Of a stretch of 64,000 bases of DNA, positions 6,209-24,006 are shown piece after piece (the first letter of the stretch is position 1; the number at the start of each line of letters is the position of its first letter). The stretch lies in NCBI RefSeq assembly GCF_013122565.1, contig NZ_CP053258.1. One strand, written 5' to 3'. The DNA comes from Escherichia coli (GTDB lineage Bacteria > Pseudomonadota > Gammaproteobacteria > Enterobacterales > Enterobacteriaceae). Position numbers and translations under genes: made by a program. The notes beneath the pieces are model-generated. The model made no database searches. It was given only the letters and a program-made list of their open reading frames with translations, and had not been told where the DNA came from.

Positions 6209-6427
6209 ATGGAAAAAGAGCAGCTGATTGAAATAGCCAATACGATAATGCCGTTTGGCAAATACAAAGGGCGTCGCTTAATCGACCTGCCGGAGGAGTA
6301 TCTGCTGTGGTTTGCCCGCAAAGATGAGTTCCCGGCAGGGAAGCTCGGTGAGCTAATGCAAATCACGCTGCTGATTAAAACCGAGGGGCTGACGCAACTG
6401 GTCCAGCCCCTGAAGCGTCCGCTTTAA
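6209..6427 (+). CDS. ypeB: DUF3820-family small protein YpeB
   Basis: ORF 6110-6427 overlaps the ligA 3' end; start placed at MEKEQLIEIANTIMPFGKYKGRRL one base after the ligA stop. Confidence 0.8.
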   Translation: MEKEQLIEIANTIMPFGKYKGRRLIDLPEEYLLWFARKDEFPAGKLGELMQITLLIKTEGLTQLVQPLKRPL

Positions 6428-7422
6428 GCTTTATCGGCGCTGCTTTCCTGCTGCGCCTGTAACTGTTCGGTCTGGCGTTTGTATCGACGCGCCAGCACCG
6501 CACAGACCATCAATTGGATCTGATGGAAAATCATCAGGGGCAGCACCATCATACCGATCACCGATGTGGGGAACAGAATGTTTGCCATCGGGATGCCATT
6601 TGCCAGACTCTTTTTCGAACCACAAAAGACGATAGTAATTTCATCTGCTTTATTGAAGCCCAGTCGGCGTGCCATAAAGACGTTAACTACAATCACGATA
6701 GCCAGAAGAACGCAGCTGGCCACCACGATAAACAGCAATGATCCCCAGCCAACTTTATGCCAGATACCATTAACGACGGCTTCGCTGAACGCTGTATAAA
6801 CCACCAACAGAATGGACGTCTGGTCAGTTTTCGCAATCCATTTTTTATTGCGCGACACCCAGTCACCAATCCACGGCCGGGAAAGATGCCCTAACACAAA
6901 CGGCAGCAACAGTTGCAGCATAATTTTACCGACCTGCTCAAGGCTGCCCCCTGCACCGTGAACATTCATCACCAGGCCAACCAACAATGGTGAAAGGAAA
7001 ATCCCCAGCAGGCTGGATGCCGACGCAGAACAAACCGCCGCCGCGACGTTACCGCCCGCCATTGACGTGAAGGCGATTGCAGACTGCACGGTCGCGGGGA
7101 GAATGCACAAGTAGAGAAAACCGGAGTAGAGCATCGGGTCGACATTTACCGGTTTCCACCAGGCAAACAGCACGCCCAGAATCGGAAACAGCACGAAGGT
7201 GCTGCACATTACCCACAAATGCAGTCGCCAGTGACCACCGCCAGCAATAATCGCCTCACGCGACAACTTCGCGCCGTGCATAAAGAACAGCAGGGCAATC
7301 GCTGCGGTGGTCAGATTTTCAAAGAAGGGGACGAAATCGCCTCTGGCCGGAAAGAAAGAGGCCAACAACACCACCGTGATCAGGGTTAAGGTGAAAGGAT
7401 CGAGGATACGAAAAAGTTTCAT
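6424..7422 (-). CDS. yfeH: Putative bile acid:Na+ symporter-family (BASS) transporter YfeH
   Basis: 332-aa polytopic membrane ORF MKLFRILDPFTLTLITVVLLASFFPARGDF... Confidence 0.88.
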   Translation of the reverse strand: MKLFRILDPFTLTLITVVLLASFFPARGDFVPFFENLTTAAIALLFFMHGAKLSREAIIAGGGHWRLHLWVMCSTFVLFPILGVLFAWWKPVNVDPMLYSGFLYLCILPATVQSAIAFTSMAGGNVAAAVCSASASSLLGIFLSPLLVGLVMNVHGAGGSLEQVGKIMLQLLLPFVLGHLSRPWIGDWVSRNKKWIAKTDQTSILLVVYTAFSEAVVNGIWHKVGWGSLLFIVVASCVLLAIVIVVNVFMARRLGFNKADEITIVFCGSKKSLANGIPMANILFPTSVIGMMVLPLMIFHQIQLMVCAVLARRYKRQTEQLQAQQESSADKA

Positions 7423-7465
7423 AAAGACTCCAGATGATCGATGCTTTCATTGTGCGTTGTTCTGA

Positions 7466-7494
7466 TTGATAAATAAAACTGAATTGCTTATCAA
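7466..7494. promoter_or_regulatory. Inverted repeat TTGATAA-N15-TTATCAA upstream of yfeH; candidate operator
   Basis: Palindromic arms read directly in sequence about 45-70 bp upstream of the yfeH start; function inferred. Confidence 0.25.
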
Positions 7495-8050
7495 TTTGTG
7501 CGCGAGGAGTGTGAGTGAGTTGCTCGCTCGCTTCGACTGGTTGGCAGAGCGGGGGAGGATATCCCGGATGAGACAAATAAGACGTTCGACAAGAGAATCA
7601 GGTGACTACAGAAAAAATCACAGGATGTTATTACTGCTGATGTTCATGTCGGTTTTCGCGTTATCAGAACTGGTTTTAGAACTGCTATTTAATCGATAAT
7701 GCCATTCTGCAGGAAAGCTTTACCTACTTTATTATTTGCGGTGTGGTAAAACCTGGTCACCAGAGGCAGGTTTAATACCAGACGCTGTCTTTTATCAGAT
7801 ATCCCATGTAAATAATAAATGCAATGAATATTAATTCATTATGTATTTATTTTGTGATTGTTTGGTGTTACTAGTTTGTTGGACAAATAACAACTCTAAC
7901 TAATACATAAACCTTGCATAGTGACAGAGTATCGATCTGAATGTTTTCAACATTGATATCAAATTGCAATTGATATCCGTGGTAAAAAGTATTGGTAAAT
8001 TTGATGAATTTCCGGATATTTAAAGGGGCGGCTCAAAGACGAAGGGGAAG

Positions 8051-9307
8051 ATGGTGAATCTAAAACTACAGTTAAAAGTTCTTTCATTTCTGCAATTCTT
8101 TTTGTGGGGAAGTTGGCTCAACACATTCGGTTCTTATATGTTTATCACGCTGCGTTTTAAGGGCGAAGATATAGGCGCAGTCTACAGTACACTGGGTATC
8201 GCAGCATTAATAACATCAACGTTATTTGGTATCGTGGCCGATAAATGGATTAGTGCTAAATGGATATATGCCGCTTGTCATTTATTTGGCGCGATAACAT
8301 TATTTATCGCAGCATCGGTTACCACGCCTTCGGCAATGTTCATTGTCATTTTACTTAACTCTCTTGTGTATATGCCAACACTCGGTTTGAGTAATACAAT
8401 TTCCTATTACCGCCTACAAACAGCGGGGATGGATATTGTGACAGAATTTCCGCCAATCCGTATCTGGGGCACGATTGGATTTATTGTCGCAATGTGGGCG
8501 GTTAGCCTGGCTGGTTTTGAATTAAGTCATATGCAATTATATATCGGTGCGGCGGCTTCATTAGGCTTGAGCCTGTTCACGTTGACTTTACCAACTGTAC
8601 CAGTGGCGAAATCTAACCAGGCGCAAGGAATGATAGATGTTCTCGGATTGCGTGCATTTACACTGTTTAAAAACAGCAAAATGGCGATTTTCTTTATCTT
8701 TGCCATGCTGCTCGGGGCAGAGTTACAAATTACCGGGATGTTTGGTAATACATTTCTCCACAGCTTTGAGAGCGTTCCAGAGTTTACCAATAGTTTTGTT
8801 GTTACCCATGCTTCTATTCTGTTATCAATTTCTCAGATATCCGAAGTCTGTTTCATTCTTGCCATTCCTTTTTTCCTGAAAAAATACGGTATCAAAAATG
8901 TCATGCTGATGAGCATGGTGGCCTGGATGCTGCGTTTTGGTTTATTCGCTTATGGCGATCCTTCATTCGGTGGTACCATTCTGTTAATTCTTTCGATGAT
9001 TGTTTATGGCTGTGCTTTTGACTTCTTCAATATATCTGGCTCGGTATTTGTTGAACAAGAAGTTGATCCATCGATTCGTAACAGCGCTCAGGGCGTTTTC
9101 CTGATGATGGCCAATGGTTTTGGTTGTATTCTGGGCGGTTTTATCAGTGGTAAAGTCGTCGATTATTTAACAACGGATGGCAATCCACAGTGGTCAACCA
9201 TTTGGCTGGTATTTGCCGGATATTCACTGGTTCTGGCTCTCGCATTTATGGTGTTGTTTAAATATAAACACAACGGTAACCCGACAACGTCCGGTCATTT
9301 CGCCTGA
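8051..9307 (+). CDS. Nucleoside:H+ symporter (NHS family), NupG/XapB paralogue
   Basis: 418-aa 12-TM ORF MVNLKLQLKVLSFLQFFLWGSWL...; by recollection closer to NupG than to the XapB encoded 2 kb downstream; AT-rich; GTG at 8054 is an alternative start. Confidence 0.85.
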   Translation: MVNLKLQLKVLSFLQFFLWGSWLNTFGSYMFITLRFKGEDIGAVYSTLGIAALITSTLFGIVADKWISAKWIYAACHLFGAITLFIAASVTTPSAMFIVILLNSLVYMPTLGLSNTISYYRLQTAGMDIVTEFPPIRIWGTIGFIVAMWAVSLAGFELSHMQLYIGAAASLGLSLFTLTLPTVPVAKSNQAQGMIDVLGLRAFTLFKNSKMAIFFIFAMLLGAELQITGMFGNTFLHSFESVPEFTNSFVVTHASILLSISQISEVCFILAIPFFLKKYGIKNVMLMSMVAWMLRFGLFAYGDPSFGGTILLILSMIVYGCAFDFFNISGSVFVEQEVDPSIRNSAQGVFLMMANGFGCILGGFISGKVVDYLTTDGNPQWSTIWLVFAGYSLVLALAFMVLFKYKHNGNPTTSGHFA

Positions 9308-9361
9308 TACGGAGTTTATCAAAATTAATAATGTTTTATAGGATTCGCAAAAGAGGAAGTT

Positions 9362-10273
9362 ATGGCAAATCAATTGTATAACCAGTGTCGGGTTTATTGT
9401 GCACCCTGGCGATTAGATGCTTTAAATTTAAATGATATCATTGATCAATGGATTGACGAGGGGCTGTTGCCGCCCCTGATCCATACTTTTCTTCCATATC
9501 GCGATGATGCCGGTGCCTCCAGTGAAGAAGAGATTTTTGTTAACGATGTCGCGAATATGGATAACAGTGTTGGGGTTATCGGTTATTTCGATGGTGGAAC
9601 CTATGATTCCGGTTATGCATGGGCTTTAGGGATGCCTGTTCACCTGGTAACGACAGACTTTCTTATATGGGCAGCGGGGAATTCTTCAGAGTTTTATCCT
9701 ATAAGTAAGCTGATGAATTATGTGGCAAAAGTGGTTTCTGTGTCAGATTCCGATACCAGTATCAGCAATTATCGTGAACAAACCGACGATATCATCAAGC
9801 GTGCGTTGCAAATTTTTCAACAAAATTTAATCGCCGACTTCGGCACGACGATTAATCCAGCAGTACCGGTTACTCCATTGCCGATTGAGTATGACTACTA
9901 TATTGATCCTAACTTTATGTATACCGAACCCTCTCGGGACTTACTGGTGAAGATCAAAGATGCGATCATTAGTGCAGGTAAGACTTTCATCGTTGGCGAC
10001 AACATGAATGATATTGCGACTGATATTGATAACTTAAGAAAATCCAGACAGGCCATCTTTTATTCCGATACCTTTGAGCCGAATGTTGACACCGGCATTA
10101 TGAATGGTATTGCCTATGCATTAGGACAGCAATCGATTATTTATTGTAGCAAGCAACAAAAATATCAATCTGCGCTCGCGACAGATTATTTAAATTTAAT
10201 GATTACCTGGTCGTCAACGGTGGCGCATTCATTTGCGGAACTTGAAACATTGATTGGTAACACAGAAAAATAA
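9362..10273 (+). CDS. Hypothetical protein with two repeats of a nucleoside 2-deoxyribosyltransferase-like (SLOG-like) motif
   Basis: 303-aa ORF; motif VIGYFDGGTYDSGYAWALGMPVHLV in the first half and AIFYSDTFEPNVDTGIMNGIAYALGQQSIIY in the second; N-terminal VYCAPW resembles the NDT IYFGAGWF motif; family assignment by eye only. Confidence 0.4.
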   Translation: MANQLYNQCRVYCAPWRLDALNLNDIIDQWIDEGLLPPLIHTFLPYRDDAGASSEEEIFVNDVANMDNSVGVIGYFDGGTYDSGYAWALGMPVHLVTTDFLIWAAGNSSEFYPISKLMNYVAKVVSVSDSDTSISNYREQTDDIIKRALQIFQQNLIADFGTTINPAVPVTPLPIEYDYYIDPNFMYTEPSRDLLVKIKDAIISAGKTFIVGDNMNDIATDIDNLRKSRQAIFYSDTFEPNVDTGIMNGIAYALGQQSIIYCSKQQKYQSALATDYLNLMITWSSTVAHSFAELETLIGNTEK

Positions 10274-10285
10274 TAGTTAATTTTA

Positions 10286-10328
10286 CTGATTATCAGGTGA
10301 GTGATTGCCTGATAATCAGCTTTTTGTT
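10286..10328 (+). terminator. Rho-independent terminator after the 303-aa ORF
   Basis: Perfect 12-bp inverted repeat ctgattatcagg / cctgataatcag with 10-nt loop, followed by cttttt. Confidence 0.65.
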
Positions 10329-10501
10329 AGCCACCAAAGAAAAATATACTGCCGTTATATTTCTCTGCCGGGGAACGATATGATCGATTTCAAAATTATA
10401 TTGAATATCTCTGGAAAATGTATTGGTCACTCGCGACTTTTTCTCGCTATAAAAAAATGTGACTCAGATCTAACGCATAATGCTTATTACAAGGACTTGC
10501 C

Positions 10502-11335
10502 ATGACCCAATCTCATTTTTCACAAAACCCGTGGTATTGCGCAGATATCATTCGTCGTCATAAACCAGACTTTACCCCACGCGTTGCGTTTATTTTGGGT
10601 TCGGGACTGGGAGCGCTGGCTGAACAAATAGAAGACGCAGTTGCCATTTCTTATAGCGATTTGCCGGGGTTTCCGGTGAGCACCGTACACGGCCATGCAG
10701 GAGAGTTGGTCCTCGGCGTGCTTTCTGGTGTGCCTGTAGCCTGCATGAAAGGTCGCGGTCATTTTTATGAGGGCCGGGGAATGACTGTCATGACTGATGC
10801 TATTCGCACGTTCAAGTTGCTGGGCTGTGAATTGTTGTTCTGCACTAACGCTGCAGGTTCGCTTCGCCCGGAAGTAGGGGCGGGTAGTCTGGTTGCGCTG
10901 AAAGATCACATTAATACGATGCCAGGCACACCGATGACAGGCCTTAATGATGAGCGTTTTGGTGAACGTTTTTTCTCATTAGCGAATGCTTACGATGCTG
11001 ATTACCGCGCCGTTTTACAAACCGTCGCGCATGAAGAAGGTTTTCCGCTGACAGAAGGGGTTTTTGTTTCTTATCCGGGGCCGAACTTCGAAACGGCGGC
11101 AGAAATTCGCATGATGCAGCTGTTTGGTGGCGACGTAGTAGGTATGTCTGTAGTGCCTGAAGTGATTAGCGCACGTCATTGCGAAATGAAAGTCGTTGCC
11201 GTGTCAGCAATAACCAACATGGCGGAAGGCTTAAGCGATGTGAAATTGTCGCATGCCCAAACCCTGGCTGCAGCAGAGTTATCACGACAAAACTTTATTA
11301 ATTTGATTTGCGGATTCTTACGCAAAATCGCCTGA
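10502..11335 (+). CDS. xapA: Xanthosine phosphorylase (purine nucleoside phosphorylase II)
   Basis: 277-aa ORF MTQSHFSQNPWYCADIIRRHKPDFTPRVAFILGSGLG..., PNP/MTAP fold. Confidence 0.93.
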   Translation: MTQSHFSQNPWYCADIIRRHKPDFTPRVAFILGSGLGALAEQIEDAVAISYSDLPGFPVSTVHGHAGELVLGVLSGVPVACMKGRGHFYEGRGMTVMTDAIRTFKLLGCELLFCTNAAGSLRPEVGAGSLVALKDHINTMPGTPMTGLNDERFGERFFSLANAYDADYRAVLQTVAHEEGFPLTEGVFVSYPGPNFETAAEIRMMQLFGGDVVGMSVVPEVISARHCEMKVVAVSAITNMAEGLSDVKLSHAQTLAAAELSRQNFINLICGFLRKIA

Positions 11336-11392
11336 AAACAATAAAAATGGCCTCGCGGATGGGGCCATCTCTCTGCGATAAGGAAACGAAAA

Positions 11393-12640
11393 ATGAATAT
11401 CGCAACGCGTTTAAAGGTAATGTCTTTCTTACAATATTTTATCTGGGGGAGTTGGTTAGTTACCCTCGGATCTTACATGATAAACACCTTACATTTTACC
11501 GGGGCTGATGTCGGTATGGCATACAGTTCTAAAGGCATTGCGGCCATTATTATGCCAGCCATTATGGGCATTATTGCCGATAAATGGTTACGGGCTGAAC
11601 GTACCTATATGCTGTGTCACTTAATTTGTGCCGGGGTGCTTTTTTATGCCGCCTCCGTAACTGAACCGAATATGATGTTCTGGGTGATGTTGCTTAACGC
11701 GATGGCTTTCATGCCCACGATTGCGTTATCCAACAGTGTTTCCTATTCGTGCCTGGCGCAGGCCGGATTAGACCCAGTCACCAGTTTTCCGCCAATCCGT
11801 GTTTATGGCACCGTGGGATTTATTGTCGCAATGTGGCTGGTGAGTTTATTGCATCTGGAGTTAAGTAGTGTGCAGTTGTATATCGCTTCTGGAGCATCTT
11901 TAGTGTTAGCGATCTATGCATTAACATTACCGAAAATTCCAGTGGCGGAACATAAAGCCAGTACGACGCTTTCCAGTAAATTAGGCCTGGATGCGTTTGT
12001 GTTATTTAAAAATCCGCGTATGGCGATTTTCTTTTTATTTGCTATGTTATTAGGTGCGGTACTGCAAATTACTAACGTTTTTGGTAATCCTTTCCTGCAT
12101 GACTTTGCCCGCAATCTTGAGTTTGCTGATAGCTTCGTGGTGAAATATCCATCCATTTTGCTCTCGGTTTCACAAATGGCGGAAGTCGGCTTCATTCTTA
12201 CCATTCCATTCTTCCTGAAGCGTTTTGGCATCAAAACCGTCATGTTGATGAGTATGGTAGCGTGGACGTTACGCTTTGGCTTCTTTGCCTTTGGCGACCC
12301 ATCGGCAGGTGGCTTTGTATTATTGTTGTTGTCGATGATTGTGTATGGCTGCGCGTTCGACTTTTTCAATATCTCCGGTTCAGTGTTTGTCGAGCAAGAA
12401 GTGGACTCCAGGATCCGCGCCAGCGCTCAGGGTTTATTTATGACTATGGTCAATGGCGTTGGGGCGTGGATTGGTTCTCTTCTGAGTGGCATGGCAGTTG
12501 ACTATTTCACGGTTGATGGCGTGAAAGACTGGCAAACCATCTGGCTAGTATTTGCTGCGTATGCACTGGCCTTAGCGGTGATTTTTGCCCTGTTCTTCCG
12601 TTATAAGCATGAACCTGATAAATGGCGCAGAAATCATTGA
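11393..12640 (+). CDS. xapB: Xanthosine permease (NHS family)
   Basis: 415-aa ORF MNIATRLKVMSFLQYFIWGSWLVTLGSYMINTLHFTG... directly downstream of xapA. Confidence 0.92.
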   Translation: MNIATRLKVMSFLQYFIWGSWLVTLGSYMINTLHFTGADVGMAYSSKGIAAIIMPAIMGIIADKWLRAERTYMLCHLICAGVLFYAASVTEPNMMFWVMLLNAMAFMPTIALSNSVSYSCLAQAGLDPVTSFPPIRVYGTVGFIVAMWLVSLLHLELSSVQLYIASGASLVLAIYALTLPKIPVAEHKASTTLSSKLGLDAFVLFKNPRMAIFFLFAMLLGAVLQITNVFGNPFLHDFARNLEFADSFVVKYPSILLSVSQMAEVGFILTIPFFLKRFGIKTVMLMSMVAWTLRFGFFAFGDPSAGGFVLLLLSMIVYGCAFDFFNISGSVFVEQEVDSRIRASAQGLFMTMVNGVGAWIGSLLSGMAVDYFTVDGVKDWQTIWLVFAAYALALAVIFALFFRYKHEPDKWRRNH

Positions 12641-20594: not shown

Positions 20595-20860
20595 ATTTGC
20601 TCCAAATATGAGGCAGGTTAAATTTCCGTGCACATTCTATGTAACATGGTTAAGGAAAACGAGATCTGACACACACTATAATGACGTCCTGTGACAAGCT
20701 TCAAAAATAGTGATCTGCCATACATTTCTGCTATGTTGTGTATGGAAGCTGAAAGTTATGTAAATGTGCTAACATTAAACATAACCATAACATTCGAGTC
20801 ATCAATCTTTTCGTAGTCATAATCCTGGTCTATCAGAGAAATCACCACAACCCATTTAAA

Positions 20861-20880
20861 TGAATTTGATAATCATTCTC
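20861..20880 (+). promoter_or_regulatory. Fur box in the mntH promoter
   Basis: tgaatttgataatcattctc resembles the Fur consensus GATAATGATAATCATTATC. Confidence 0.6.
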
Positions 20881-20895
20881 GTTTGGCATAGCATG

Positions 20896-20917
20896 AAACA
20901 TAGCAAAGGCTATGTTT
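20896..20917 (+). promoter_or_regulatory. MntR operator in the mntH promoter
   Basis: Palindrome aaacatagc-aaag-gctatgttt immediately upstream of the mntH start. Confidence 0.65.
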
Positions 20918-20920
20918 TAG

Positions 20921-22168
<1,248 letters not shown>

Positions 22169-22175
22169 TTGAATG

Positions 22176-22287
<112 letters not shown>

Positions 22288-22308: not shown

Positions 22309-22635
22309 TTAATGGCGGTGCCCATGTCCGCGGCCTTTTCCGCGATGATCGTCACGATCGCGCCAGCCTTCACGATAGCCACGCTCATACGCTTTACGCT
22401 TATCCCAGCCACGGTGGTAGCCATTATCATGACGCCACCAGCGGTTTTTACGCCATTCATAATTGCGATGCCAGTAGTCACGGTCGCGCCAGTGACCACC
22501 GTCCCAGTAATTACCGTAATGATCGCGATCGCCAATTTGTAATTTGATTGATGGCAGTAGGGTGATTTCACCTGCGTTTGCCGCAAGCGGGGTAAATGCC
22601 ATCAGGGCGGCCGCCAGAAACAGTGACCTGAACAT
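22309..22635 (-). CDS. ypeC: Secreted DUF2502-family protein YpeC (His/Arg/Trp-rich)
   Basis: 108-aa ORF with signal peptide [21 protein letters not shown] and low-complexity [18 protein letters not shown]...GHGHRH. Confidence 0.85.
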
Positions 22636-22749
22636 TGTTATTCTCCTTCACGATCGAAGCCGTCAGCGGCCTGTTAACGCAATATTACGGGGAGGTAAAG
22701 CCCCGTATCATCGCCATAACTCTTAAATCATAAAGGAGAGCATTTTTTG

Positions 22750-24006
22750 CTAAACGTTATCGTGGGGTGGCTGTTGCTTCGGACGATTGACCATCATCAT
22801 CGGCTTACCTGCTAATAACAGCCATGCCGGAAGCATGACGATACAGAGCAGCGGTAGCAAGGTGGTATTGGGTACAACGACTGCCGCCATAAAAAGACTT
22901 AACCAGCCATCACGTGTTACCACCAGCACGATGCCGAGAATAGCGCAGGAAACGGTTATTGCCGCTGGAACGGCGGGTACGTGCTCATGCAGCATCAACC
23001 CTAATGCCACGCCGACAAACACTGCCGGGAAGATTCGTCCACCGCGAAAGCCACTGGCGGCAGCAACGACCAGGGCGGTAAGTTTAATTACCGCCAGCAA
23101 AAAGTAATCGCTGGTGCTGAAAGCCTGATTTGCCACCATCTGCTGCATCTCATCCAGTCCTTTAAACAGCGAAACCGGCCCACCAATAACCCCCAGAATA
23201 CCGAGAATAAATCCGCCAATACCCAGCACGAGCACCGGATTTTTCATTTGATGCATCATCGCGTGCAATCGTGGTAAGCACCATACGGCGACCATCCCTG
23301 CTGCGATGGCAATCGCCGCGACAATTGCACCGCTGAGAATATCGGTCATTTCCATCTGTCCGTAATGCGCAATGGGCAGTGAAAAATGAGGATGGAAAAA
23401 TAATCCGGTAGTAAGTGCACCAGCTGCTGCCGCCATTAACGGCGCAAAGAGACGATCCCATAGCGGAACTTCACTACTGCCATTTAAGGTTTGCGAAAAT
23501 ATCAACGCCGCCGCAACAGGTGTGCCAAACAGTGCGCCAATGGTTCCGGCAGAGGCTAAAATAGTCCACTCCATTCGGTTGACGCGCGGTAACAGACGAG
23601 CGCCAATGGCGACGGCAAGGGCGATATTGACGGTCATGATCGGATGTTCCGGCCCCAGGCTGACGCCGCCAGCAAGACCGAGAATTAATGCTACGATAAG
23701 TCCAGGTAGCGCAGAGGGCGGAACCGGTGCGCCGATCAGCGGTTCACAGGCGGGGTCTGGTCCGGCATGACCCTGGCTGAAACGGATAACCAACCCCACC
23801 GCAATACCCGTTAGCGTTAATACACCGATGATCCAGAGGGGTGAATCCTGGGCTATCCCCAGAGTTCCCGGCAGTCGTTGCCAGAGCAAATTCTGTAATA
23901 CCGAGGCGATTTTCATCACCACAATCAGAATAAGACTGGACGCAATCCCAATTGCCACGGCGGGGAGCGATAATAACAACATGGTTCTGGCTCGCGGATG
24001 GAGCAT
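22750..24006 (-). CDS. yfeO: ClC-family voltage-gated chloride channel-like transporter
   Basis: 418-aa polytopic membrane ORF, Gly/Ala-rich ClC-type helices. Confidence 0.85.

What the first reader, a model, noticed from the sequence alone, without database searches (positions are those of the whole stretch)
22309..22635. YpeC: secreted low-complexity His/Arg/Trp/Tyr-rich protein next to the Mn/Fe transporter
The mature protein is dominated by [18 protein letters not shown]...[12 protein letters not shown], a composition typical of metal-binding or envelope-interacting peptides. Its position next to mntH (separated by a REP cluster) raises the question of a metal-related role.
Basis: inference. 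Interest (0 to 1): 0.2.

Follow-up and report, generated by a model that had tools for sequence, protein, structure and literature searches.

The report
YpeC, an envelope-stress periplasmic protein
This is the known but uncharacterised E. coli gene ypeC, encoding a small secreted protein with a conserved mini-domain and a histidine-tipped disordered tail; published data tie it to envelope and antibiotic stress regulators, not to the neighbouring manganese transporter.

Summary
Window 22309-22635 (- strand) is a real 108-codon gene, identical in protein to E. coli K-12 YpeC (b2390). It is a full-length member of Pfam DUF2502. It lies convergent to mntH across a REP cluster.

The "low-complexity" label is only half right. 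Residues 22-70 form a conserved, confidently predicted ~47-residue domain with no PDB fold relative. Only residues ~71-108 are a disordered R/G/H/D/W/Y tail.

The metal idea survives in one respect. A C-terminal His cluster recurs across the family (52 of 62 non-redundant members), whereas net charge does not (-14 to +11).

The Mn/Fe-MntH link is not supported:
- The genes are convergent.
- The only MntR box sits in front of mntH.
- ypeC has its own conserved promoter, beginning at a marbox.
- Paralogues such as yaaX sit at unrelated loci.

Published data place ypeC in the Rcs regulon (42-60x up after LolCDE inhibition, 24x down when rcsB is disrupted). They also show it is a direct MarA/SoxS binding target.

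My best reading is a stress-induced periplasmic binder whose His-tipped tail takes up cations or protons. The ligand is unknown.

This is a known gene of unknown function, of low to moderate interest.

The parts
22309..22635 (-). ypeC coding sequence (108 codons plus stop), a DUF2502 family member
   Evidence: ORF list. Pfam PF10697 E=3e-24 over the full model. 100% protein identity to K-12 b2390, with only synonymous differences in the CDS.
22573..22635 (-). Sec signal peptide, residues 1-21 ([21 protein letters not shown], cleavage after ANA)
   Evidence: Read from the sequence: basic n-region, hydrophobic core, AXA site, no Cys. It is conserved in all orthologues (A1). No signal-peptide predictor was available.
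22426..22572 (-). DUF2502 core mini-domain, residues 22-70. Family motif: hydrophobic-x-L-x-P-x-hydrophobic-x-L-x-I-G-D-R-D-x-x-G-x-Y-W-D-G-x-x-W-R-D-x-x-W-W
   Evidence: Invariant or near-invariant columns in 30- and 54-sequence alignments. AF2 core model has pLDDT 82.6 and pTM 0.61, with residues 11-40 above 90. In the full-length model, residues 31-70 average pLDDT 83-90.
22312..22425 (-). Disordered R/G/H/D/W/Y tail, residues 71-108. It includes the YpeC-orthologue motif [15 protein letters not shown].
   Evidence: pLDDT below 50 for residues 72-108. Indel-rich and hypervariable across the family. Pooled tail composition is R 19%, G 17%, H 17%, D 10.5%.
22312..22347 (-). C-terminal His cluster ([12 protein letters not shown], residues 97-108)
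   Evidence: His is 34% of the last 12 residues across 62 non-redundant family members, against 7.7% in the rest of the mature protein. 52 of 62 have at least 3 His there.
22643..22646 (-). Shine-Dalgarno GGAG, 7 nt before the ATG
   Evidence: Sequence. GTGAAGGAGAA is at least 90% conserved in the 77-locus alignment.
22740..22754 (+). Marbox GCATTTTTTGCTAAA (MarA/SoxS site). It reads backwards relative to ypeC, lies 105-119 nt upstream of the ATG, and overlaps the yfeO stop codon.
   Evidence: Exact match. It is the same 15-mer reported as the MarA ChIP-seq site with strong in-vitro binding (PMC5684230) and as the SoxS ChIP-seq site in Salmonella (PMC10268841). Cross-genus conservation starts exactly here.
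22636..22739 (-). Conserved ypeC promoter and 5'-UTR block. Candidate -35 ATGATA (22711-22706) and -10 TAATAT (22687-22682) with an 18-nt spacer. TAAGA RcsB-like half-site (22725-22721). Conserved GCGTTAACAGGCCGC.
   Evidence: Phylogenetic footprint over 77 loci. The hexamers are my own reading (8 of 12 matches); the promoter scan reported no site at its 9-of-12 threshold. No full RcsB box with 1 or fewer mismatches.
22177..22284 (.). REP cluster (two full REP hairpins and one partial) between the convergent stop codons of mntH and ypeC
   Evidence: Rfam naRNA4 (REP-derived) hits of 49.4 and 48.7 bits, below the gathering score of 59.5. Inverted repeats. REP consensus found 3 times against 0.27 expected. 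Fold z-score -3.1.

Best explanation
ypeC is an independently transcribed stress gene of the Rcs and MarA/SoxS regulons. It encodes a small soluble periplasmic protein.

**Anatomy**
- A Sec signal peptide.
- A compact ~47-residue aromatic DUF2502 domain, with a predicted fold that has no PDB relative.
- A ~38-residue disordered R/G/H/D/W/Y tail ending in a His cluster.

**Shown or published**
- Gene identity and family membership.
- The domain/tail architecture, as a prediction.
- Its own conserved promoter, beginning at a marbox that MarA and SoxS bind.
- Strong RcsB-dependent expression.
- No MntR or Fur site, and no transcriptional coupling to mntH.

**Inferred (my commitment)**
- When envelope damage or Mar/Sox inducers switch the gene on, the protein accumulates in the periplasm.
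- The folded domain docks on an envelope partner.
- The flexible tail uses its terminal His cluster, plus flanking Asp and Arg, as a site titrated by divalent cations or protons.
- By the Irving-Williams series that site would prefer Zn, Ni or Cu over Mn or Fe.
- In logic this is a stress-induced periplasmic cation-binding or buffering protein, comparable to ZraP-type proteins.
- The position next to mntH is inherited gene order, not a functional unit.
For: - **Identity:**
- **Architecture:** conserved core against hypervariable tail. AF2 gives pLDDT 83-90 for the core and below 50 for residues 72-108. The core-only model has pLDDT 82.6.
- **His cluster:** conserved family-wide, while net charge is not.
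- **Own promoter:** the conserved block starts at the marbox even where the upstream gene differs.
- **MarA/SoxS:** MarA ChIP-seq plus strong in-vitro binding at this exact 15-mer. ypeC is also listed as a SoxS ChIP-exo target in E. coli (PMC5684230) and as a SoxS ChIP-seq peak in Salmonella (PMC10268841).
- **Rcs:** ypeC rises 42x and 60x with a LolCDE inhibitor, among classic Rcs genes (PMC5105897). It falls 23.7x in an rcsB-disrupted O157 isolate (PMC5343319).
- **Paralogue yaaX:** 62% identity over the core. It is induced on RcsB overexpression, by colicin M and by the LolCDE inhibitor. A Serratia homologue's promoter was used as an Rcs reporter.
- **Not Mn/Fe:**
Against: - No experiment on the protein exists: no metal binding, partner or phenotype was found in 15 papers containing the gene name.
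- No full RcsB box (TNRGAN4TCYNA) with 1 or fewer mismatches lies upstream of ypeC, so Rcs control may be indirect.
- Whether MarA or SoxS binding changes ypeC transcription was not established in what I read.
- The promoter hexamers are weak and are my own reading; the scan found none.
- His clusters can arise by codon-repeat slippage and could be tolerated rather than selected.
- The domain model rests on only 54 fairly similar sequences.
- The family is small: 85 clusters at 50% identity among 1.84 billion representatives.
Confidence: 0.55

Rival explanations
1. Envelope-polymer binder. The cationic Trp/Arg/Tyr-rich mature protein sticks to anionic or glycan components of the envelope: phospholipid head groups, peptidoglycan, periplasmic glucans or colanic acid. 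It stabilises them during Rcs-type stress. The His cluster is incidental.
For: - The mature protein has pI about 10, with 18% Arg and 9% Trp. From general knowledge, this composition is typical of membrane-active Trp/Arg peptides and of sugar-binding surfaces.
- It is co-induced with capsule genes and small envelope proteins of the Rcs regulon.
- The core contains the invariant aromatic motif YWDG..W.
Against: - Net charge is not conserved in the family. It ranges from -14 to +11, and pI from 5.3 to 11.5. YaaX-type members are acidic to neutral.
- The conserved aromatics may simply form the core of a tiny domain that has few aliphatic residues.
- No fold similarity to any known carbohydrate- or lipid-binding module was found.
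Confidence: 0.18
2. YpeC is a periplasmic accessory of Mn/Fe uptake. It captures Mn2+ or Fe2+ and presents it to MntH, or it is co-regulated with mntH by metal supply.
For: - The ypeC-mntH adjacency is retained from Escherichia to Chimaeribacter (Yersiniaceae) and Pantoea, although the proteins have diverged to about 40% identity.
- His/Asp-rich sequence can ligate Mn. From general knowledge, His-rich sites such as the calprotectin tail bind Mn2+.
- SoxS binds the promoter. From general knowledge, oxidative stress raises the demand for Mn.
Against: - The genes are always convergent, with separate promoters.
- The MntR box lies only before mntH, and there is no Fur box.
- The whole block glk...nupC is syntenic, so the adjacency carries no specific information.
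- The adjacency is interrupted by 5-kb insertions in some Citrobacter and by a methyltransferase gene in Pantoea.
- Paralogues and distant members with the same His-tipped design sit next to thrC/yaaA, fklB/ytfE, usp, a Na/H exchanger or an amylase gene.
- The MntR regulon is described as mntH, mntS and mntP.
- None of the papers retrieved for the E. coli Mn terms appears among the 15 papers that mention ypeC.
- Exposed His clusters favour Cu, Ni or Zn over Mn or Fe (Irving-Williams series, general knowledge).
Confidence: 0.07
3. Protein-protein modulator. The conserved mini-domain binds another envelope protein, for example a component of the Rcs sensing path or a transporter, and gives feedback or modulation. 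The tail is a variable linker or decoy.
For: - The core is extremely conserved: residues 23-47 are almost invariant among Enterobacteriaceae.
- It is among the most strongly induced Rcs genes.
- The family is centred on Enterobacterales, the order in which the Rcs system is found (general knowledge).
Against: - No partner is known.
- Members also occur in Deefgea and Jeongeupia, which are Neisseriales.
- Some members carry two core modules in tandem, which suits avidity for a repetitive ligand better than a single protein partner.
Confidence: 0.1
4. Not a functional protein. It is a chance ORF or a decaying low-complexity gene.
For: The composition is repetitive. Long overlapping ORFs occur in other frames. 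In-frame deletion variants exist among E. coli sequences (P0072 and P0077).
Against: - It is present in 5425 of 5426 E. coli genomes.
- Only synonymous differences separate it from K-12.
- A Pfam family with 409 genomic relatives exists.
- The Shine-Dalgarno, signal peptide and promoter are conserved.
- The transcript is strongly regulated.
Confidence: 0.02

Closest known systems
YaaX (E. coli b0005), the DUF2502 paralogue
   Same: - Signal peptide followed by the same core: 62% identity over 65 residues, E=2e-30.
- A disordered His/Pro/Gly-rich tail ending in His residues.
- Induced on RcsB overexpression and under envelope stress.
   Different: - Its tail is Pro/His-rich and lacks the [14 protein letters not shown] motif.
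- It lies between thrC and yaaA, not near mntH.
- No marbox was reported at yaaX in the MarA table I read; the nearby MarA peak there is assigned to thrL.
ZraP / Spy / CpxP class of stress-induced periplasmic proteins
   Same: Small soluble periplasmic proteins switched on by envelope stress systems. From general knowledge, ZraP carries His-rich metal-binding segments. spy is co-induced with ypeC in the LolCDE-inhibitor data.
   Different: There is no sequence or fold relation. No LTXXQ helical family match was found; Pfam gives only DUF2502 even at E up to 10, and there is no PDB fold match. The resemblance is in logic only and was not tested.
Other small Rcs-regulon envelope proteins (OsmB, YmgD, YmgG, Bdm, Ivy, YpfG, YcfJ, YaiY)
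   Same: They are co-regulated in the same transcriptome sets. They are small secreted or membrane proteins, mostly of unknown mechanism.
   Different: The families are unrelated. YpeC is not a lipoprotein (it has no Cys), and it additionally has a MarA/SoxS site.
His-rich metal-binding tails and loops (for example the ZnuA/ZinT His-rich segments, Hpn, HypB and SlyD tails)
   Same: They share (HG)n- or Hn-type clusters at a flexible terminus. One Pantoea member is even named 'Zinc ABC transporter substrate-binding protein' by a source, most likely a composition-driven mislabel.
   Different: There is no homology, and no metal-responsive regulation or binding data exist for YpeC. The recalled resemblance is a lead, not a test.
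Trp/Arg-rich membrane-active peptides (indolicidin, tritrpticin, lactoferricin class)
   Same: High Trp plus Arg content and a net positive charge in YpeC orthologues.
   Different: YpeC is a 10-kDa periplasmic protein with a folded domain. The positive charge is not conserved in its family.

Membership tests
Pfam DUF2502 (PF10697) | Match to the family HMM above the gathering score | tested here: met
   85.4 bits against a cut-off of 27, E=3e-24, covering profile positions 1-90 of 90. It is the only Pfam hit even at E up to 10.
Pfam DUF2502 (PF10697) | N-terminal signal peptide followed by the core motif GDRD..G.YWDG..WRD..WW | tested here: met
   Invariant positions are P28, G35, G41, Y43, W44, D45 and G46. 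Near-invariant positions are L26, L32, I34, D36, D38, W49 and W55 (30 sequences; 54 cores).
Pfam DUF2502 (PF10697) | Significant similarity to the named paralogue YaaX | tested here: met
   BLASTP E=2e-30, 62% identity over 65 residues.
mar/sox/rob regulon (direct targets) | Marbox upstream of the gene | tested here: met
   GCATTTTTTGCTAAA at 22740-22754. About 90% conserved per column across 77 loci, and it marks the start of the conserved block.
mar/sox/rob regulon (direct targets) | Regulator bound at the site in vivo and in vitro | not testable with these tools
   Published: MarA ChIP-seq plus strong in-vitro binding, and ypeC listed as a SoxS ChIP-exo target (PMC5684230). SoxS ChIP-seq peak in Salmonella (PMC10268841).
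mar/sox/rob regulon (direct targets) | Transcription changes when MarA, SoxS or Rob is induced | not tested
   Not found in the text I read. The supplementary data were not examined.
Rcs regulon | Expression depends on RcsB and rises with Rcs-activating stress | not testable with these tools
   Published: 42x and 60x up with a LolCDE inhibitor; 23.7x down with rcsB disrupted.
Rcs regulon | RcsB box TN(G/A)GAN4TC(T/C)NA in the promoter (consensus from PMC7913699) | tested here: not met
   No match with 1 or fewer mismatches in 22636-22835. There is only a 2-mismatch match at 22663-22676, plus a TAAGA half-site at 22725-22721 that I read from the sequence. Direct versus indirect control is therefore open.
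MntR/Fur-controlled Mn/Fe uptake system | MntR or Fur operator at the gene's promoter | tested here: not met
   The only MntR-box match is at 20896-20917, before mntH. There is no Fur-box match with 3 or fewer mismatches in the window.
MntR/Fur-controlled Mn/Fe uptake system | Same transcription unit as the transporter | tested here: not met
   The genes are convergent, with a REP cluster between their stop codons.
MntR/Fur-controlled Mn/Fe uptake system | Gene neighbourhood with the transporter conserved across the protein family | tested here: inconclusive
   It is conserved for YpeC orthologues as part of a larger syntenic block. It is absent for paralogues and distant members.
His-rich periplasmic metal-binding proteins (functional class) | Cluster of His residues in a flexible segment | tested here: met
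   [12 protein letters not shown] at the C-terminus. The family-wide enrichment is 34% against 7.7%. The segment has pLDDT below 50.
His-rich periplasmic metal-binding proteins (functional class) | Demonstrated metal binding or metal-responsive expression | not testable with these tools
   No report was found among the papers that mention ypeC, yaaX or DUF2502.

The most novel reading that the evidence does not exclude
DUF2502 is a previously undescribed periplasmic mini-fold, sometimes tandemly repeated, coupled to a selected C-terminal His cluster. Under this reading YpeC and YaaX form a stress-inducible periplasmic metal-handling pair. They would buffer Zn, Ni or Cu during envelope damage or, in the boldest version, concentrate Mn2+ at the inner membrane for MntH when Mar/Sox or Rcs stress raises demand.
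Probability: 0.12. Interest if true: 0.5.

Novelty: already known. Interest (0 to 1): 0.2.

Why it matters
YpeC and its paralogue YaaX are induced by the Rcs envelope-stress response; YpeC ranks among the most strongly induced genes in the LolCDE-inhibitor data. YpeC is also a conserved direct MarA/SoxS target. Yet nobody knows what either protein does.

Assigning a function would fill a gap in how enterobacteria repair or protect the envelope under antibiotic, lipoprotein-trafficking and oxidative stress.

The analysis gives experimenters three concrete starting points:
- A separable folded domain (residues 22-70).
- A removable His-tipped tail (residues 97-108).
- A defined promoter carrying a marbox.

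It also removes a tempting but unsupported link to manganese uptake.

Tried and rejected
- **Sequence and profile searches of the PDB** found nothing below E=1.
- **Other libraries.** NCBIfam and PADLOC gave no hit.
- **RcsB box.** No match with 1 or fewer mismatches upstream of ypeC or yaaX. I had read TAAGAGTTATGG as a possible box, but it is only a half-site.
- **Shared regulatory motif between ypeC and yaaX upstream regions.** The best local match is the 11-mer GGAGAATAACA. It is borderline (9 of 500 shuffles reach it) and lies at different positions relative to the start codons, so I dropped it.
- **5'-UTR hairpin GCCGCTGACGGC.** It is conserved in sequence but no more stable than shuffles (z=-0.15), so I do not claim it as a structure.
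- **Rfam.** There were no hits apart from the REP-derived family and one chance hit at E=0.61.
- **Promoter scan.** It found no sigma-70-like site at its threshold, so my -35 and -10 are weak candidates only.
- **Literature searches.** 'b2390' returned only one relevant paper. No paper mentioning ypeC deals with metals.
Full report
**1. What is at the coordinates**

The region 19.4-26 kb of the window is the E. coli block nupC(-), mntH(+), ypeC(-), yfeO(-), glk(+), fryB....

- The ORF at 22309..22635 on the minus strand encodes 108 residues.
- It matches Pfam DUF2502 over the entire model (E=3e-24, 85.4 bits against a cut-off of 27). It has no NCBIfam model.
- Its product is 100% identical to K-12 YpeC (b2390). 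The six nucleotide differences within the CDS are all synonymous.
- The locus is found in 5425 of 5426 complete E. coli genomes.
- A GGAG lies 7 nt before the ATG.
- The N-terminus is a textbook Sec signal peptide ([21 protein letters not shown]|GE) with no lipobox cysteine. This is my reading of the sequence; no predictor was available.

The neighbour mntH (20930-22168, +) is an Nramp/MntH equivalog. Between the two convergent stop codons lie two complete REP hairpins and one partial one, at 22177-22284.

**2. Composition and architecture**

The mature protein (87 aa) is R16, G13, D10, H9, W8, Y7, with pI about 10.

- R+H+W+Y make up 46%, against a mean of 11.6% and a maximum of 18.8% in the 46 long ORFs of the window.
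- The composition is therefore far outside chance.
- The other ORFs that overlap ypeC most likely reflect its repetitive codon content.

"Low complexity" describes only the C-terminal part.

- Alignments of 15 orthologues (A1), 30 family members (A2) and 54 cores (A3) show a nearly invariant N-terminal module: x-L-x-P-x-x-x-L-x-I-G-D-R-D-x-x-G-x-Y-W-D-G-x-x-W-R-D-x-x-W-W.
- That module is followed by a tail that varies by indels and repeats.
- AlphaFold2 on the full-length alignment gives mean pLDDT 83-90 for residues 31-70 and below 50 for residues 72-108.
- The core alone gives pLDDT 82.6 and pTM 0.61. Its secondary structure runs: two short strands, a string of bridges, one helix and a hairpin.
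- Some family members carry two core modules in tandem.

**3. The family**

The family is small and narrow.

- 278 clusters at 90% identity.
- 85 representatives at 50% identity among 1.84 billion proteins.
- 409 genomic relatives in about 100,000 species genomes, with the best 80 all Enterobacteriaceae.
- Named distant members come from Yersiniaceae (Chimaeribacter, Rouxiella, Nissabacter), Erwiniaceae (Pantoea) and Pectobacteriaceae (Dickeya). A few come from Neisseriales (Deefgea, Jeongeupia).

I examined 62 non-redundant, apparently intact members.

- The extreme C-terminus is strongly enriched in His: 34% of the last 12 residues against 7.7% in the rest of the mature protein.
- 52 of 62 have at least 3 His in the last 12 residues. 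Typical endings are HGHGHH, HHHHH and HHHDD.
- Net charge ranges from -14 to +11, and pI from 5.3 to 11.5.
- The conserved design is therefore "core domain plus flexible tail plus terminal His cluster", not "polycation".

It also argues against a purely electrostatic envelope-binding role.

**4. Is it linked to mntH?**

- The genes are convergent, so they cannot share a transcript.
- A perfect MntR operator (AAACATAGCAAAGGCTATGTTT) lies at 20896-20917, immediately before mntH, and nowhere else. No Fur-box match with 3 or fewer mismatches exists in the window.
- Across the 80 loci, mntH lies directly downstream of ypeC in convergent orientation in most cases, as part of a longer syntenic block glk-(ipdC-gpr)-ypeC-mntH-nupC. 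About 5 kb is inserted between the two genes in several Citrobacter (L008, L012, L013, L016, L070, L071). The upstream neighbour also changes: yfeO is adjacent only in Escherichia. This agrees with the synteny description in PMC5770404.
- The block persists in Chimaeribacter and in an unnamed metagenomic lineage. It persists in Pantoea with an extra methyltransferase gene in between.
- Other family members with the same design lie elsewhere:
  - between thrC and yaaA (YaaX type);
  - after glk and before a Gig2-like gene;
  - next to a usp gene;
  - between fklB and ytfE in Dickeya;
  - next to a Na/H exchanger and a peptide ABC permease in Jeongeupia;
  - next to SUI1 and an amylase gene in Deefgea.
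- The E. coli MntR regulon is described as mntH, mntS and mntP (PMC4361602). None of the papers retrieved for the E. coli Mn terms appears among the 15 that contain "ypeC".

I conclude that the adjacency is inherited gene order of one orthologous lineage and carries no specific functional signal.

**5. What controls it**

I aligned the 200 nt upstream of ypeC from 77 loci.

- Conservation begins abruptly at TTTAGCAAAAA(A/G)TGC. This is the reverse complement of GCATTTTTTGCTAAA at window 22740-22754, which overlaps the yfeO stop codon.
- Conservation then continues to the start codon, irrespective of which gene lies upstream.

That 15-mer has published binding evidence.

- It is the MarA ChIP-seq site reported for ypeC in E. 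coli, with the strongest class of in-vitro binding. ypeC is one of seven MarA targets also found as SoxS ChIP-exo targets (PMC5684230).
- The same marbox is a SoxS ChIP-seq peak in Salmonella (PMC10268841).

Within the conserved block I read three candidate elements:

- a weak candidate promoter, ATGATA (22711-22706), 18 nt, TAATAT (22687-22682);
- a TAAGA half-site at 22725-22721;
- a strongly conserved GCGTTAACAGGCCGC.

These are inferences. The consensus scan found no promoter at its threshold.

Published transcriptomes place ypeC firmly among Rcs-dependent genes.

- It rises 42x and 60x at two doses of a LolCDE inhibitor, alongside osmB, bdm, wca, ypfG, yaiY and spy (PMC5105897).
- It falls 23.7x in an O157 isolate whose rcsB is disrupted (PMC5343319).
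- It also appears in multi-stress, "core perturbome", acid-shift and conjugation-response gene lists.

The paralogue yaaX behaves similarly.

- It is induced on RcsB overexpression (PMC2731931), by colicin M (PMC3599342) and by the LolCDE inhibitor.
- The promoter of a Serratia DUF2502 gene was used as an Rcs reporter (PMC8470065).

I could not find a full RcsB box (TN(G/A)GAN4TC(T/C)NA, PMC7913699) with 1 or fewer mismatches upstream of ypeC or yaaX. Whether Rcs acts directly remains open.

**6. How it most likely works**

Shown or published:

- It is a real, conserved, independently transcribed gene.
- Its product has a Sec signal, a conserved and confidently predicted mini-domain, and a disordered His-tipped tail.
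- MarA and SoxS bind its promoter.
- Its expression depends strongly on RcsB.
- It has no Mn/Fe operator.

Inferred:

- On envelope damage, or on Mar/Sox induction, the protein accumulates in the periplasm.
- The folded domain supplies specificity for an envelope partner that is still unknown.
- The tail's terminal His cluster, with its flanking Asp and Arg, forms a site titrated by divalent cations or protons.
- From general coordination chemistry (Irving-Williams series), that site would favour Cu, Ni or Zn over Mn or Fe.

[quoted passage not shown] This is a lead towards Zn, not evidence.

I give the overall reading a confidence of 0.55, most of which rests on the regulatory and architectural parts. 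The specific cation-binding step alone would deserve about 0.3.

Rivals:

| Rival | Confidence | Main point against |
|---|---|---|
| Envelope-polymer binder | 0.18 | Charge is not conserved in the family |
| Protein-protein modulator of an envelope pathway | 0.10 | No partner known; members occur outside Enterobacterales |
| Non-gene | 0.02 | Conservation, synonymous-only variation, regulated transcript |

**7. Comparison with what is known**

- Membership of DUF2502 is met on every testable criterion.
- The closest relative is YaaX: 62% identity over the core, E=2e-30.
- Functionally the nearest analogies are the stress-induced periplasmic proteins of the ZraP/Spy/CpxP class and the many small Rcs-regulon envelope proteins. 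There is no homology to any of them.
- The resemblance to His-rich metal-binding tails is compositional only. One database name for a Pantoea member, "Zinc ABC transporter substrate-binding protein", is probably a composition-driven mislabel.

**8. Novelty and verdict**

The gene, its family and its Rcs and MarA/SoxS connections are already in databases and papers. Its function is unknown.

This analysis adds four points:

- The protein is a conserved mini-domain with no PDB fold relative, plus a disordered tail.
- A terminal His cluster, not positive charge, is the conserved tail feature.
- The gene carries its own deeply conserved promoter, starting at the marbox.
- The mntH adjacency is lineage-specific synteny.

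Category: already known (an uncharacterised member of a known family). Interest is about 0.2. The finding is useful for anyone studying the Rcs or Mar regulons, but it is not surprising.

Noticed in passing
window 20860-20949 (+): The 29-codon small ORF ypeD (K-12 b4819) is present and identical. It overlaps the first 20 nt of mntH, and the MntR operator (20896-20917) lies inside it.
   Followed up: partly
window 7688-7702 (-) and 58138-58152 (+): Two further matches to the degenerate marbox pattern GCAYNNWNNRYYAAA. The count of 3 in the window is no more than chance (2.1 expected), so they may be meaningless.
   Followed up: no
L008, L012, L013, L016, L070, L071 (Citrobacter), about 6300-11500: About 5 kb of extra DNA sits between ypeC and mntH in several Citrobacter genomes. 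L042, L074 and L075 have a smaller (~0.7 kb) extra gap. The content was not examined.
   Followed up: no
L002 (398-bp contig labelled Rhizobium wenxiniae) and L053 (labelled Chryseobacterium sp. 18061): These contigs carry enterobacterial ypeC. L002 is 100% identical to the query. L053 carries the full nupC-mntH-ypeC-yfeO-glk block. This is very likely contamination or mislabelling of the assemblies.
   Followed up: no
proteins P0138, P0147, P0160, P0164, P0170, P0187, P0188, P0198, P0199: Family members with two tandem copies of the G(D/E)R(D/N)xxGxYWDGxxWRxxxWW unit. This suggests the repeat unit is about 29 residues and can be duplicated.
   Followed up: partly
proteins P0168 (Deefgea) and P0170 (Jeongeupia); loci L091, L092: DUF2502 proteins occur in Neisseriales, outside Enterobacterales. 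Their neighbourhoods are unrelated to the enterobacterial ones. P0170 and P0183 end in a Cys-containing CPPGQAKKGNC motif instead of a His cluster.
   Followed up: partly
protein P0216 (Pantoea stewartii): A source names this DUF2502 protein 'Zinc ABC transporter substrate-binding protein'. This is probably a composition-driven annotation error.
   Followed up: no
window 22636-22646 (-) and L095 256-266: The 11-mer GGAGAATAACA is shared between the ypeC Shine-Dalgarno/spacer and a position about 70 nt upstream of the yaaX start codon. It is borderline against shuffles (9 of 500).
   Followed up: partly
proteins P0072 (85 aa) and P0077 (86 aa): These are close YpeC variants (listed at 79-80% identity to the query) with in-frame internal deletions between repeated RDRD/W segments. 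This is consistent with recombination or slippage within the repetitive coding sequence.
   Followed up: no
window 22750-24006 (-): yfeO (a CLC-type 'ion channel protein', NCBIfam PRK03655) lies immediately upstream of ypeC only in Escherichia. Its stop codon overlaps the ypeC marbox. In other genera ipdC and gpr lie between them.
   Followed up: partly
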